NCBI RefSeq assembly: GCF_006345805.1
Contig: NC_043007.1
Location: forward strand, 38,130,001-38,194,000
Source: Octopus sinensis
Lineage: Eukaryota
Length of the DNA: 64,000 nucleotides
Direction of reading: 5' to 3'
Made by a program: the position numbers and the translations under genes. Positions 1 to 58,375 of the stretch are shown here, in pieces; within the stretch, counting starts at the first letter, position 1, and each line of letters opens with the position of its first letter. The notes below the pieces were generated by a model, which did not search any database, had not been told where the DNA came from, and was given only the letters and a program-made list of their open reading frames with translations.

Positions 1-370
1 GGAGATAAAATGATTTCTTTATATATCTTTTCTACTATAGGCACAAGGCCTGAAATTTTATGGGAAGGGATTAGTTGATTACATCAACCCCAGTGCACAA
101 CTGGTGCTTACTTCATCAACCCTGAAAGGATGAAAGGCAAAGATGACCATAGCGGAATTTGAACCTAGATATATATATATAAACAAATACATCTATAGAA
201 TACGTACAGGCAGTCACAAAGTCATAGACAGAGTGAGAGGAGTAGATCACACCGATATAGACAGAGACAGGAAGAGAAACAAAAAGATAGAGATGGAGAG
301 AGAGCAACACACACACACACAAGCCAATAAACAACCAGATAGCCAAGACAGAAACTGAAATCTCACAAAC

Positions 371-444
371 CTTGGTCATTTCCAATTCCTTTGTTAGTGC
401 TCTCACTGATCCTGCATAAAGCATCTGTTGCTCGGGTTTACAAC
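371..444 (-). CDS. GMF: Glia maturation factor (ADF-H/cofilin-like, Arp2/3 debranching factor), internal coding exon (74 bp); the gene continues left of the window
   Basis: Minus strand reads ttcttcag|GT TGT AAA CCC GAG...ACC AAG|gtttgt = (G)CKPEQQMLYAGSVRALTKELEMTK. This matches the GMF motif GCKPEQQMMYAGSK...LTK, and the phase fits the upstream exon. Confidence 0.95.
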
Positions 445-850
445 CTGAAGAACAAACAACATAATATTATAAATCAATGCAAAGAAATACATTTCAGAAA
501 ATTAACAGTTGGAAGAATTTCTGATGATAAATGATAACAATGATGATGGTGATGGTGGTGATGGTGATGATGACAATAATGACAGTAGTGCTACTCCTCC
601 TCCTCCTCTTATTATTAAGTTCTAGGAAGAAAATTGTTATCATTTGGATGATGAATGATGAGGAATTGGCAACGTCTTGTATGTGAATTTTTCCCGTTAG
701 TTGTGTTTCTGTTAATATTCCCAATAACCAGACATGTTTTCAGTGAAGATTGGAAACCACGCACACTACTTACATGATAGTGATGCTCATTTACAACTAT
801 TACGCAAAGCCACGGCAAGAAGACAGAAGCATACATACCACACACACACA

Positions 851-1140: not shown

Positions 1141-1576
1141 CACACACACACATTAAAATACTGACTGTAGCTAATTAGATTCCTAATTGTCTACTTATGC
1201 CAACTTGTTTACTTCAATTCCAGTGATTATCTTTGATTACTTATGTGTTTGTTTATCTGTATACTAGCCAGATTTTTCTCTCTGTTGATTGTCTCTGATC
1301 TTTTTTTATTCATTATTACTCTCTCTCTCTCAATCCTACCTATCTATCTATTTCTAAGAATTGATTATATTATTGTTTTACCTAGCATCCAAATCTTTCC
1401 GTCTTCAGTATTCTGTATTTATTTACTTGCCAAACCTAAAATTATAAACCTCATGCTTACCACATCAAGTGTGTTAGCGCTTGCTTTTCCTCATACCAAA
1501 CCAGCGACCCATCTTCCTGCCTGGCATCCTGCCTGACTGTTAGTTTATAGATTGGAATAAATCAAAGTGTACTCAC

Positions 1577-1708
1577 CCTGTGGGCTGACGAAGATGAATA
1601 TCAGAGGATATGATACACGACCATCATCATGGTTATACACATAGCTGAGAACAATAAACCGGGGTTGTGAGACAGGTAACTCTTCCTGGATCTCATCCAT
1701 TGTACAAT

Positions 1709-1709
<1 letters not shown>
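1577..1709 (-). CDS. GMF: GMF internal coding exon (133 bp)
   Basis: ttattcag|GAT TGT...CCA CAG G|gtgagt encodes [44 protein letters not shown](G), containing the GMF signature QPRF...[10 protein letters not shown]. Confidence 0.97.
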
Positions 1710-1758
<49 letters not shown>

Positions 1759-1885
1759 TATAATAATATAATTATAATAAAATATAAGGAGGAGGGGGAG
1801 GGGAGGGGGAAAAGAAGAAGAAGAAGAAGAAGAAGAAGAAGGAGGAGGAGAAGAAGAAGAAGAAGAATGTAGAGCTGTTATAAAA

Positions 1886-3985: not shown

Positions 3986-4028
<43 letters not shown>

Positions 4029-4203
4029 ATAAATATTAGGGAATAAATCCAAATTTACAGGGAAAAAATCAGATTTAGGATTAAATCCAATTTTATAGTA
4101 AAATATTATAAAATATTATTAGAGACAAAACCACTATTTTGCAAAACAAACAAGGAAAGACTTAATCAATACATAAAATTTTAATAAATAGTCAAAAAAA
4201 CCG

Positions 4204-4246
4204 CCACTACAATTGTTTCTTGTCTTGATCGACAATCTTCAGGTGG
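4204..4246 (-). ncRNA. Minimal type I hammerhead ribozyme (PLE-type)
   Basis: Minus strand: CCAC-CUGAAGA-uuguc gaucaa gacaa-GAAA-CAAUUG-UA-GUGG. Intact core, 5-bp stem II, palindromic stem III, GUA cleavage triplet. Confidence 0.85.
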
Positions 4247-6699
4247 ACTTCCAATCTAAAATATCAATATTTTAAAATATAAAAATAATAATTTTAAAAT
4301 AATTAAAGTATGAATGAAAAAATATAAATATATAATCCATATATAACCTATATATAATCCATATATAATCAATATATAAACAATATATAAACTAAAATAA
4401 ACCTATCAACAATTAAATATAAAATATAAAATATAAAATATAAAATATAAAACAAAACAAAAAAATAATAATAATATAATAATAAACTATATATACACCC
4501 ATACACATATACCTAATTATATATAACCATATCTAACTACATACACTAAATCACACACCTATATATATATCCCTATACATACACATAAAAACGTCTAGGC
4601 AACTATAAATAAATAAAATAGCTAAATACTTCAACACAATACTTATTCATACTCCCACACACACACACATACAACCCACATTCACGCTCTAGAAAACGGA
4701 CATCACTTAAAATTATGAACGGAGAAATGGAATAAATGGAATTAAAAATTATATTCACTTGGTAAAACGAACACTACTTAAAAATTATGAATGAAACAAT
4801 GCAATAAAACAACAGACATCGCAAATAGACACAAATTACTACGAATTCCTTAACAAACCTACCATGATAAACCAAAACTCATAAAAACATATAATGATAA
4901 AATCTCCCTTTACTAAACTCTATAACATACCTATATAGCAATCCCCCTAACCTAAACATTCACACACAAATACACACACGTAAACCACACACCCACGACA
5001 TATACAAATACCCACACCACTTACACATACCTATACATACATATAAACCTCAACATATACTCCAAAAACCCACTCAACCCCACACAGACAAATAAACACA
5101 AAATTATGTGTGTGTTTGTGTGTGAATGTGTGAATGTGTATATGTGTATATGGGTTTGTTATTTAGGTTTTGGGATGTATGTGTTAATTTGTCTGTGTGG
5201 GGAGGGAGTGGGTTTTTAGTGTATATTGAGGTTTATAAGTTAGTATAGGTATGTGTATAAGTCGTGGGTCTGTGGTTTACGTGTGTGTATTTGTGTGTGA
5301 ATGTTTAGGTTAGGGGGATTGCTATATAGGTTTGTTATAGAGTTTAGCAAAGGGAGATTTTATCGTTATATGTTTTTAAGAGTTTTGGTTTATCATGGTT
5401 TTTTTAGGGAATTCGTGGTAATTTGTCTATTTTCGATGTTGGTTGTTTTATTACATTGTTTCATTCATAATTTTGAGTGGTGTTCGTTTTGCCACGTGAA
5501 TATTATTTTTAATTCCATTTATTCCATTTCTCCATTCATTATTTTAAAAGATGTTCGTTTCCAGAGCGGTTATACTTTTTATACATATGTTAAGTTCTTG
5601 GTAAAGTAATTTTGTTTGGTGTATATGTTGAGGCTTATATGTACTTGTGGGTGTGTGTGAGTGGGGTGGGTGTTTGTATTTGTTATGGGTGTGTGGTTTA
5701 CGTGTGTGTATTTGTGTGTGAATGTATAGGTTAAAGGGATTGCTATATAAGTATGTTATAGTGTTTAGTAAAGGGAGGTTTTATCATTTATGTTTTGTGA
5801 GTTTTAGCTTATCATGGTAGTTTTATAAAAGAATCCATTCATAATTTTTGTGTTTATTTGTCTGTGTGGGGTTGAGTGGGTTTTTGGAGTATATGTTGAG
5901 GTTTATATGTATGTATAGGTATGTGTAAGTGGTGTGGGTATTTGTATATGTCGTGGGTGTGTGGTTTACGTGTGTGTATTTGTGTGTGAATGTTTAGGTT
6001 AGGGGGATTGCTATATAGGTATGTTATAGAGTTTAGTAAAGGGAGATTTTATCATTATATGTTTTTATGAGTTTTGGTTTATCATGGTAGGTTTGTTAAG
6101 GAATTCATAGTAATTTGTGTCTATTTGCGATGTCTGTTGTTTTATTGCATTGTTTCATTCATAATTTTTAGTAGTGTTCGTTTTACCAAGTGAATATAAT
6201 TTTTAATTCCATTATTCCATTTCTCCGTTCATAATTTTAAGTGATGTCCGTTTTCTAGAGCGTGAATGTGGGTTGTATGTGTGTGTGTGTGGGAGTATGA
6301 ATAAGTATTGTGTTGAAGTATTTAGCTATTTTATTTATTTATAGTTGCCTAGACGTTTTTATGTGTATGTATAGGGATATATATATAGGTGTGTGATTTA
6401 GTGTATGTAGTTAGATATGGTTATATATAATTAGGTATATGTGTATGGGGTATATATAGTTTATTATTATATTATTATTATTTTTTTGTTTTGTTTTATA
6501 TTTTATATTTTATATTTTATATTTTATATTTAATTGCTGATAGGTTTATTTTAGTTTATATATTGTTTATATATTGATTATATATGGATTATATATAGGT
6601 TATATATGGATTATATATTTATATTTTTTCATTCATACTTTAATTATTTTAAAATTATTATTTTTATATTTTAAAATATTGATATTTTAGATTGGAAGT

Positions 6700-6742
6700 C
6701 CACCTGAAGATTGTCGATCAAGACAAGAAACAATTGTAGTGG
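6700..6742 (+). ncRNA. Minimal type I hammerhead ribozyme (PLE-type)
   Basis: ccac ctgaaga ttgtc gatcaa gacaa gaaa caattg ta gtgg; predicted cleavage after 6738. Confidence 0.85.
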
Positions 6743-6829
6743 CGGTTTTTTTGACTATTTATTAAAATTTTATGTATTGATTAAGTCTTTCCTTGTTTGT
6801 TTTGCAAAATAGTGGTTTTGTCTCTAATA

Positions 6830-6860
<31 letters not shown>

Positions 6861-54502: not shown

Positions 54503-55417
54503 TATGTTGTTCATAAGCAGAGATGTTGCAGAACAATATGCTAAAATCTCTCAAACTTGAAACAAAAGCCAGGCCTGATCCTTGATTGACCTTAAAAATC
54601 TGGGAGATGCCTGGAAGGACTATAGATTCTGCCCCACCTACTTGGATAAAAGGATTAAATAATAAATAATAAAAAAACAAGACTAAATCACTGGACTATT
54701 TTGTTAAATATGTATATGTGTGTTTGTGTGTGCACATACGTTTGTGTGTAGTGGATATATAGGTCATAAGGCAGTGTGTTTAAAGGTCAGAAGTCAAAAG
54801 TACATCTATCAACCAAATTTATCAAACAAAATATTTTAGCTGATTGCAGAATAATCACATGGGCTTTCTTTCTCTCTTTCTTTCTTTCTTTCTTTCTGTC
54901 ATTTAATGTATTGAACCATTAACAAAACATCCAGGACAGATAATTATTATTTTTTTATTATTATGGTTACTCGACTTTACCATATTTGCCACTTTTTTTT
55001 TTTCGAGGATATTAGCTTTCTCATAGTGTGGCTGTGTGATAAGAAGCTTACTCTCCAACTACATGGTTCCAGATTCAGTCCCACTGGGTGACACCTTGGG
55101 CAAGTGTCTTCTACTATAGCCTCAGGGCAACCAAAGCTTTGTGTGTGAATTTGGTAGATGGAAACTGAAAGAAGCCTGTCATATATATAAGTATATATAT
55201 AAAAATTAGAAAAAAAAACACCTTTTATCAATTCAAAATAAACAATTAAATTACACCATCTAGAAAATTACATAAATAGAAATATTAAAAATAAAATAAC
55301 AATAATATACTGATGATTAAGTAAAATTCAAATTAATAATATAAACTTATATATTTGTTTAATATTTCTATTTATGTAATTTTCTAGATGGTGTAATTTA
55401 ATTGTTCATTTTTTCTA

Positions 55418-55462
<45 letters not shown>

Positions 55463-55467
55463 ATATA

Positions 55468-55870
55468 ATGTCTCTATGAGAGATTTAGAAATTCAGTATT
55501 TCTTATTTTGATAATCAGTGAATAGACTTCACTGAATTATAGATATATACAATTACGAAGTTGAGACAAATATCACCAGCTGACCGGTGTCTGCTACTCT
55601 AGGCCGATGAAGGACAATGATCCTGAAACACGTGTCCCTAGATGCAGCTTCAGCAGCCGGGGCTGTTTGTCTCCCCTTCGTAAATGTATATAATGACACA
55701 GGGAAAAATGTGTCAAAGCCATCAGGACGCGTTCGATGCTTCCTAGGGCTATACAGCGGTCGTGTACCCCCTACTGTTACGTTCGTGTTAGATTGACAGT
55801 ATACAACCATTCTATCGCCCCACCACCATACATGTCTCTACGAGAGATTTAGAAATTCAGTATTTCTTAT
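55468..55870 (+). mobile_element. Retrozyme/PLE-like 364-bp unit with 39-bp terminal direct repeat
   Basis: atgtctcta(t/c)gagagatttagaaattcagtatttcttat occurs at 55468-55506 and 55832-55870. The unit contains a hammerhead and is flanked by (TA)n. Confidence 0.65.
55598..55642 (+). ncRNA. Minimal hammerhead ribozyme with CCGAUGA core variant
   Basis: tctagg-ccgatga-agga caatga tcct-gaaa-cacgtg-tc-cctaga: 6-bp stem I, 4-bp stem II, palindromic stem III, GUC triplet. Confidence 0.75.
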
Positions 55871-57255: not shown

Positions 57256-58095
57256 GGTATTTATGTCTGTATGTGTGTATGGAAGGTTATATGGATGTGT
57301 AGGGGGATGTCAGTTTTTTTCTATATTGAGATTTGAGAGAAAATTCTAAGATGACAGGTGCTATGCAACTTCATATCAAAAACCCACCAAACACTGCTTA
57401 TAATGCAAGAATTGAACCTGTAAATAAAAGAGATGGAAAAAAGATGTTGAGTATTACAGTTGTTTCGAAGGTACATCGGGTGTATCTTATGTGGCATTAT
57501 GAATGTACTGTAACTGTCCAGTGTACATTTTCCTTGGGTACATATGACACTTTAGTTGAAAATAGTCTACTGTAGTGGAGAATGCAGAAAAGAAAAAAAA
57601 TGGGAATGGAGATTGAAATCAGTAAAAAAACGAGGTGTGCATTACTAACCAATTACCTTAGCGAGATAGACAGGGGTGTGGTATCATTTCATTATCAGCA
57701 TGCTCAAATTTTTGCAGTGGCTGATAATGAAATGGAACAGACATATGTAAACAAGCGTGTGTGTATACATATGTGTGTATGTTTATCTCTATATATATAA
57801 AACTGAGAATGTCTGTCTGTCTGTGTGTTTCCCTATGTCTTCAGGTGCTTAGTCCCAGCTGGCGGGGGTGATTGCCTCCCCTTTGCAAATATAAGGACAC
57901 AGAAAATGTGTCAAAGCTGACAGAAGACATCAGTGTTTCCTAGGGCTAAATGGCGGTGGTGTAATTCCCTTACGGGACTGTCACATTGAGTTGACAGTAT
58001 ACGACCACTATATCCTTAAATTGATTTTTGTGTTATATAAAAAACAATAGACATGCAGTGCATGACTAGCATGTCTCAACTGCACCCCGCTGATA

Positions 58096-58156: not shown

Positions 58157-58375
58157 ATCAAAGCAATTAAGATTCAAGTCAATTCCAATGAATTTACTTG
58201 AATGTGGTACTTAACTTAGATGCACCAGAAAAACTATATGGTGTTAACCATACAGTAATGTGGGGTGATTATAAACGAGAAAGAAGCAACAAGAATGGAT
58301 TAGTTTTTAGTACAATTGTATGAAACAATTGTACTAAAAACTAATCCATTCTTGTTGCTTCTTTCTCGTATATAA
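58150..58375. mobile_element. PLE-type fragment with a perfect 45-bp foldback
   Basis: Arms 58275-58319 and 58325-58369 are exact reverse complements. The fragment contains GAAA-CAATTG-TA (a hammerhead 3' half) and has (TA)n flanks. Confidence 0.6.

What the first reader, a model, noticed from the sequence alone, without database searches (positions are those of the whole stretch)
55468..55870. 364-bp terminally redundant hammerhead unit: candidate cephalopod retrozyme / circular RNA template
One hammerhead, a highly structured body, no ORF and a 39-bp direct repeat at a 364-bp period are what reverse transcription of slightly more than one round of a circular or tandem RNA would leave. The size fits non-LTR retrozymes described in other metazoans; I do not know whether this family has been described.
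Basis: partly seen in the sequence, partly recalled or inferred. Interest (0 to 1): 0.75.

Follow-up and report, generated by a model that had tools for sequence, protein, structure and literature searches.

The report
Dead copy of Penelope-mobilised hammerhead retrozyme
This is one truncated copy of a scattered, protein-free repeat family that carries a predicted self-cutting hammerhead RNA; its back-to-back insertions almost always end at two different fixed sites, which likely records a borrowed Penelope-type enzyme copying one, probably circular, RNA from both cut DNA strands.

Summary
In detail: 38/39-bp direct repeat at period 364, one type I hammerhead fold (U4C core, cut after 55636), fold z about -5, no ORF. 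The locus is a single-armed, 403-nt insertion in (TA)n of a family with over 1,000 end matches. The 39-bp redundancy is incidental: fixed 3' end plus random 5' truncation. With one hammerhead this copy could not excise a monomer, so it is a product, not a circle source. The family runs head-to-tail with no ORF, so it is not a pLTR of a coding element. Insertions show the Penelope footprint: two 3' ends 55 nt apart, head-to-head arms, (TA)n targets, 7-13-bp duplications. Of 91 two-armed insertions with both ends classed, 90 pair the two different ends; arms share rare variants, pointing to one template. Copies read cleanly through the cut site, so the template was circular or uncut; not resolved. 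No partner element, cleavage or circular RNA shown. A 1.7-kb ORF1-like element inserts site-specifically 35 nt upstream of the core in other copies. New member of known non-LTR retrozymes; this scan reported the same anatomy before on other DNA of this genome.

The parts
55468..55870 (+). Whole insertion: one arm of 403 nt (1.1 units), 5'-truncated, ending at fixed end A
   Evidence: 94-96% to best copies; 9 private positions
55468..55506 (+). First copy of the 39-bp overlap (unit positions 1-39); start is a random truncation point
55832..55870 (+). Second copy of the overlap; 55870 is fixed 3' end A
55591..55647 (+). Predicted type I hammerhead: helix I 55598-55603/55637-55642, core 55604-55610 (U4C), helix II 55611-55624, GAAA 55625-55628, helix III/loop 55628-55635, predicted cut after 55636
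   Evidence: compensatory changes in sister family L186; activity untested
55544..55692 (+). Long predicted hairpin with the hammerhead at its tip
   Evidence: (self-complementary match)
55816..55870 (+). 55-nt 'tail' between fixed end B (55815) and fixed end A (55870)
55569..55585 (+). Target site (empty here) of a 1.7-kb one-ORF element found in other copies
55421..55467 (.). (TA)n tract at the 5' flank; short TA run also follows 55870; target duplication not resolvable

Best explanation
The locus is one 5'-truncated, single-armed insertion of a dispersed, non-coding 364-nt repeat family with a predicted type I hammerhead, likely pasted into a TA microsatellite by the reverse transcriptase and endonuclease of a Penelope-like element acting in trans. 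Shown by sequence: head-to-tail units, no ORF, two fixed 3' ends 55 nt apart, variable 5' ends, head-to-head arms that pair the two different ends, short target duplications, TA targets, both arms of one insertion from one haplotype. Inferred: arrays with two or more hammerheads are transcribed and cut to monomers that are ligated to circles; the enzyme nicks both target strands and primes each on the same RNA, one at end A and one at end B; the two cDNAs stop at random and join by microhomology. This copy kept only the A arm, ran 403 nt, and with one hammerhead would not release a monomer. I put the family assignment at about 0.9, Penelope mobilisation at 0.85, one RNA molecule for both arms at 0.6, circular template at 0.55.
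For: Copy counts 1,282 (end B), 474 (end A), 130 + 202 (core forms), controls 0. Pooled 119 distinct two-armed insertions: 90 A+B, 1 B+B, 0 A+A, 28 with an end elsewhere (sets). 105 of 148 A/B ends are followed by TA repeats; 15 of 18 non-TA two-armed insertions show 7-13-bp duplications. Arm junctions mostly overlap by 1-4 nt. Arms agree at subfamily sites 392/408 (220 expected) and 544/557 (344 expected), and share rare variants 8/10,224 vs 5/90,233 control sites and 26/9,255 vs 8/75,697. 51 of 146 arms cross the cut site, 4 twice; 5' ends do not pile up there (6 vs 4.4 expected, P 0.28); 1 of 103 scanned cores has an extra base at the cut junction (the four sets overlap). Family polymorphisms inside the hammerhead fall at N7, loop 2 and loop 3, none in core or helices. 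Sister family L186 (62%) keeps the fold with three compensatory pairs in helix I, one in helix II and U3-A8. Open-frame RT + GIY-YIG elements exist in the genome, one family with two 3' ends of its own. Tail, inverted copy and microsatellite bias are Penelope traits (PMC8557442 passages; PMC11167929 parts 1-2).
Against: No partner found: the unit has no DNA match to the coding-element ends in 60 loci picked by GIY-YIG (the only long match was a sister retrozyme lying in L186). The tail is 55 nt, longer than the 30-40 nt described. U4C strongly lowers cleavage in vitro (PMC3088659 passage) and helix II opens with A-U, so activity is uncertain; 8 of 9 Xenopus dimers did not cleave in the 2026 preprint, and in PAc uncut RNA was the main insertion substrate. 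Five of six arms with two full units have near-identical neighbours (0-3 differences in about 362 nt, against about 2.5% for partial laps and arms): these look like later duplication or assembly, not extra laps, so long arrays are not evidence for a circle. Shared variants cannot tell one RNA molecule from one source locus. In vitro PAc showed no strand difference in start-site use. Outside the hammerhead, common variants keep predicted pairs in only 9 of 16 site rows. End classes (34-50, 342-349) were set after seeing the data; the duplication count had no shuffle control.
Confidence: 0.8

Rival explanations
1. Same family and enzyme, but the template is an uncut linear transcript of a genomic array; the hammerhead is slow or vestigial and no circle is needed.
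For: U4C core; uncut RNA is the main PAc substrate; 13 arrays with two intact same-strand cores exist among the loci fetched; no arm in the end-selected sample exceeds 642 nt.
Against: Hammerhead fold is kept with compensatory changes across sister families; laps within an arm differ no more than arms do (2.5% vs 2.7%); no fixed 5' end marking a transcription start; related animal repeats are shown to be circles (PMC7229834).
Confidence: 0.3
2. The unit is the pseudo-LTR (3' end) of a coding Penelope-like element and the copies are its truncated stubs.
For: All insertion traits are those of Penelope elements; the genome holds many such stubs, one at window 55190-55412.
Against: Long arms continue into the same unit, not into an ORF; among 69 single-arm 5' flanks, apart from pairs that were one locus fetched twice, the only shared upstream sequence was the 1.7-kb insert, which has a target duplication and no RT; no match to 60 GIY-YIG loci.
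Confidence: 0.05
3. Cut linear monomers are the template and the enzyme jumps end to end.
For: Explains more-than-unit copies without ligation; template jumping by retrotransposon RTs is recalled, not checked here.
Against: No excess of 5' ends at the cut site and only 1 of 103 junctions with an added base.
Confidence: 0.07
4. A satellite spread by DNA-level duplication, with the 39-bp repeat a target duplication.
For: Extra full units in five arrays do look like local DNA duplication.
Against: Dispersed over most large contigs, fixed 3' and variable 5' ends, own target duplications; the 39 bp are internal family sequence.
Confidence: 0.02

Closest known systems
Metazoan non-LTR retrozymes (Cervera and De la Pena 2020, PMC7229834, parts 2-4 of 6 read; Li, Clavereau and Pollet 2026, bioRxiv 10.64898/2026.07.22.740005, parts 1-3 of 5 read)
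   Same: Type I hammerhead in 150-450-bp head-to-tail non-coding units, GC under 50% (43%), self-paired fold, target duplications longer than 4 bp, coexisting Penelope elements; mussel units are 350-390 bp.
   Different: U4C core; two loop III forms (palindromic tetraloop, 130 copies; one base longer, 202 copies); mostly short head-to-head two-armed insertions rather than long arrays; cleavage and circles not shown; neither paper covers cephalopods in the parts read.
Endonuclease-bearing Penelope-like elements (Craig et al. 2021, PMC8557442, passages; Arkhipova et al. 2013, PMC3846280, passages; Frangieh et al. 2024, PMC11167929, parts 1-2 of 4; Cervera and De la Pena 2014, PMC4209133, parts 1-2 of 4)
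   Same: 5' truncation, partial tandems, inverted 5' copy, tail at one end only, two start sites, AT-rich or (TA)n targets, 8-10-bp duplications, hammerhead in the repeat.
   Different: No RT or GIY-YIG frame; canonical-size rather than minimal hammerhead; tail 55 nt; near-strict A+B pairing and same-haplotype arms are quantified here.
Target-specific L1/Tx1-type non-LTR elements and ORF1-only derivatives (recalled; search listing only)
   Same: For the 1.7-kb insert: CCHC knuckle ORF, fixed 3' junction in a multicopy target, 9-17-bp duplication.
   Different: No RT frame in the unit; the target is a retrozyme, 35 nt upstream of a hammerhead core.

Membership tests
non-LTR retrozyme | Type I hammerhead motif | tested here: met
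   All helices and core positions present except U4C; covariation in L186; no Rfam hit
non-LTR retrozyme | Head-to-tail units of about 150-450 bp | tested here: met
   Period 347-369 nt, arrays up to about 3 units
non-LTR retrozyme | At least two consecutive hammerheads at the locus ('active' in Li et al.) | tested here: not met
   One hammerhead in the window copy; met by 13 other arrays among the loci fetched
non-LTR retrozyme | No protein coding | tested here: met
   Longest ATG frame 59 aa sense, 85 aa antisense
non-LTR retrozyme | Target duplication longer than 4 bp | tested here: met
   7-13 bp in 15 of 18 non-TA two-armed insertions; not resolvable in the window copy
non-LTR retrozyme | Self-cleavage | not testable with these tools
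   Needs an in vitro assay
non-LTR retrozyme | Monomeric linear and circular RNA in tissue | not testable with these tools
   Only contigs of runs guessed to be RNA were available
autonomous Penelope-like element | RT and GIY-YIG frame | tested here: not met
Penelope-type insertion footprint | Inverted 5'-truncated copy and tail at one end | tested here: met
   90 A+B of 91 classed two-armed insertions; tail 55 nt rather than 30-40
Penelope-type insertion footprint | Microsatellite / AT-rich target bias | tested here: met
   105 of 148 ends followed by TA repeats
Penelope-type insertion footprint | Sequence link to the pLTR of an autonomous partner | tested here: inconclusive
   No match in 60 GIY-YIG loci of 5,029 first-look candidates
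plant LTR retrozyme | Type III hammerhead in long terminal repeats, 4-bp duplication | tested here: not met
   Type I fold, no fixed terminal repeat, longer duplications; primer-binding site and polypurine tract not tested

The most novel reading that the evidence does not exclude
A Penelope enzyme dimer holds one RNA circle and primes its two subunits at two different fixed sites, one per nicked DNA strand, which would explain the inverted repeats and one-sided tail of all Penelope-type insertions; and the retrozyme is itself the specific landing site of an ORF1-only element that sits 67 nt upstream of the cut site and would use the hammerhead to finish its own RNA with target-homologous sequence.
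Probability: 0.3. Interest if true: 0.68.

Novelty: new member of a known kind. Interest (0 to 1): 0.4.

Why it matters
The locus itself is an ordinary dead copy. The family matters because how Penelope-type elements build their tandem and inverted insertions is still called undefined (PMC8557442), and mobilisation of animal retrozymes by these elements rests on co-occurrence and pLTR similarity. A short non-coding family with over a thousand insertions gives countable rules (A+B pairing, same-haplotype arms, clean read-through of the cut site) that an in vitro system like PAc can test. Searches for retrozyme + octopus, retrozyme + cephalopod, hammerhead + octopus + ribozyme and Penelope + twin priming + pLTR listed no paper describing such a family; supplements and Repbase were not seen and may hold it.

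Tried and rejected
Rfam: no hammerhead hit. Expression: no RNA holder listed on record; contigs of four runs guessed to be RNA cover the unit in pieces, including a 250-nt contig over 55486-55662 from a second organism label, but contigs cannot show ends, strand, level or circularity, so this is not used as evidence. Partner search: GIY-YIG search and 60 of its loci gave no DNA link to the unit. Long arrays as proof of rolling-circle copying: rejected, five of six look like later duplication. Pile-up of 5' ends at the cut site: not found. Link between the longer loop III form and the 1.7-kb insert: rejected (12 of 20 with, against 14 of 25 in the end-selected sample). Whole-unit structural selection: weak. 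My first sample (exact palindromic core) missed the commoner loop form, so end statistics were repeated on an end-selected sample. Dropped before counts: clusters within 80 nt of a locus edge, duplicates, short internal self-complement hits, and 2 arms abutting the insert. Host gene: cofilin/ADF-family exons at the window start on the minus strand; its upstream exons were not located, so intron or intergenic position is unknown. Sequence look-up in earlier findings returned nothing. The output was cut; I cite only what was shown.

Full report
Coordinates. q is the position in the window copy (q = window - 55467); the unit is 364 nt, so q403 equals q39.

Observation. The direct repeat is real (38 of 39, period 364). 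A type I hammerhead fold lies at 55591-55647 with 6/6 pairs in helix I, 4/4 in helix II, a 2-bp helix III with a palindromic tetraloop, and a predicted cut after 55636. This matches the canonical animal architecture described in PMC4209133, except U4C and an A-U pair opening helix II. Rfam does not detect it and the motif alone is no more stable than shuffles. The 403 nt fold at z -5.1; the minus strand folds even lower, so this does not define the strand. No ATG frame over 59 aa lies on the sense strand; GC is 43%.

Family. A search of the own genome gave 2,199 first-look candidates, 40 scored, best copies 94-96% identical. Exact patterns gave 130 and 202 matches for two forms of the core, 1,282 near q348 and 474 near q403, each with 0 in the reversed control. 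I analysed two partly overlapping samples: 116 insertions from loci L001-L146, chosen mostly by similarity or core pattern, and 101 insertions from 115 loci chosen by end patterns.

Ends. 3' ends cluster at A (q39, window 55870) and B (q348, window 55815); 5' ends fall all round the unit. In the end-selected sample 65 of 101 insertions are head-to-head two-armed; median arm 173 nt, 26 of 146 longer than one unit, longest 642. Pooled, 119 distinct two-armed insertions give 90 A+B, 1 B+B, 0 A+A and 28 with an end elsewhere, several of them interrupted by later insertions. 105 of 148 A/B ends run into TA repeats, and 15 of 18 two-armed insertions outside TA tracts show 7-13-bp duplications, so the two arms are one event (no shuffle control). 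Arms join mostly through 1-4 shared bases. These are the traits listed for Penelope-like elements: partial tandems, inverted 5' copy, tail at one end, microsatellite bias (PMC8557442 passages; PMC3846280 passages), and the tail equals the distance between two RT start sites in vitro (PMC11167929).

The window copy. It is a single A arm of 403 nt between TA tracts, with 9 private changes. Its 39-bp redundancy is simply 403 minus 364. With one hammerhead it could not release a monomer. Candidate sources are arrays with two intact same-strand cores: 14 such pairs in 13 arrays among the loci fetched.

Template. Both arms carry the same subfamily haplotype (392/408 against 220 expected; 544/557 against 344) and share rare variants far above same-haplotype controls (8/10,224 vs 5/90,233; 26/9,255 in 15 of 65 insertions vs 8/75,697). 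This points to one RNA or one source locus; the data cannot separate the two. 51 of 146 arms cross the cut site, 4 twice; 5' ends show no excess there (6 vs 4.4, P 0.28), and 1 of 103 scanned cores has an added base at the junction (overlapping sets). The template was therefore covalently continuous: a ligated circle or an uncut multimer. Against over-reading: five of six arms with two full units have neighbours differing by 0-3 bases while partial laps differ by about 2.5%, so those extra units look like later duplication or assembly; only L023 (9 of 360) looks like a true run of over two laps.

Is the hammerhead under selection? Of 30 common polymorphic sites, those inside the motif fall at N7 and loop 2, plus the loop III insertion; none falls in core or helices. 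The sister family in L186 (62% over 291 nt) keeps the fold with three compensatory pairs in helix I, one in helix II, U3-A8 and canonical U4; U3-A8 is a known variant. The longer loop III form would allow a third base pair and loses the palindrome, so the two forms are predicted to differ in dimer dependence (inference). U4C lowers activity in vitro but sufficed in a viroid (PMC3088659 passage). Cleavage is untested. Outside the motif evidence for structural selection is weak (9 keep, 7 break; rare changes 109 keep, 269 break).

Not a coding pLTR. Long arms continue into the same unit. Among 69 single-arm 5' flanks the only recurring upstream sequence, apart from loci fetched twice, was a 1.7-kb insert. 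Penelope elements with open RT + GIY-YIG frames of 775-781 aa exist, one family with two 3' ends and a variant hammerhead, another with a CCGA core like ours, but none of 60 loci matched the unit. The partner is unidentified.

The insert. In 10 loci with host sequence on both sides it spans 1.6-5.3 kb (one to three copies), 3' junction at q102 (q104 once), 5' junction at q110-118. It holds one frame of about 490 aa with a sub-threshold zinc knuckle and no RT; nearest atlas clusters are CCHC proteins at 0.90-0.91. Of the 30 best matches to its 3' end, 19 run directly into the retrozyme at q102, 7 into a short target piece and the next copy, 4 elsewhere. Of 30 loci picked by protein, the 15 closest lie in or beside the retrozyme and 15 of a sister subfamily do not. 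An L1/Tx1 ORF1 origin is recalled, not tested. That it borrows the hammerhead to end its RNA is a hypothesis. Earlier notes of this scan had mentioned such an element.

Comparison and verdict. It works like, and at family level meets the testable features of, the non-LTR retrozymes of coral, mussel and axolotl (PMC7229834) that a 2026 preprint derives from Penelope elements. The organism label 'octopus-like' rests on earlier notes and recall, not on a test. Four literature searches listed no description of such a family; a squid genome paper only counts 235 hammerhead matches; supplements were not read. The scan has reported the same anatomy many times on other DNA of this genome, which is not independent evidence. 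Verdict: new member of a known kind; ordinary dead copy, mechanistically useful family; interest 0.40.

Noticed in passing
L104:1629-3362, L269-L275, L278, L279 (target = window 55569-55585): 1.7-kb one-ORF element (CCHC knuckle, no RT) inserted site-specifically at q102 of the retrozyme with 9-17-bp duplications, often in tandem; a sister subfamily has another 3' end and another target.
   Followed up: partly
L061:1523-1589 (-) and L114:1537-1604 (+): Two loci hold only the 67-68-nt hammerhead module with the same boundaries (q115-181/182), each followed by a piece that looks like the 3' part of another retroelement; L061 is single-copy, has a repeated 12-bp flank, and is bridged by contigs of four runs guessed to be RNA. 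Possibly template-switch chimeras; unexplained.
   Followed up: partly
window 55190-55412: Head-to-head stub matching the 3' region of a GIY-YIG Penelope family at 76-79%, in the same TA region just upstream of the finding.
   Followed up: partly
window 57856-58014: Older relative of the unit (74% over q184-299, plus q326-349), no hammerhead left, ending near end B.
   Followed up: partly
window 58269-58375: 51-bp near-perfect hairpin belonging to another repeat found in several fetched loci; not identified.
   Followed up: partly
L186:4780-5290 (-): Sister retrozyme family, about 360-nt unit, 62% identity, U3-A8 core, conserved sequence before end A.
   Followed up: partly
window 3988-4491 and 6455-6860; 18728/19958; 10122 (-); 63366 (+): Further inverted pairs and hammerhead-like cores, probably other Penelope-type insertions.
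   Followed up: no
window 116-466 and 1545-1877 (-): Exons of a cofilin/ADF-family gene; upstream exons not located.
   Followed up: partly
L178, L180-L183, L179: Young Penelope-like families with open 775-781-aa RT + GIY-YIG frames, variant hammerheads near the 3' end and two alternative ends.
   Followed up: partly
L008, L018, L030, L096, L123: Extra full units nearly identical to their neighbour: later local duplication or assembly artefact.
   Followed up: partly
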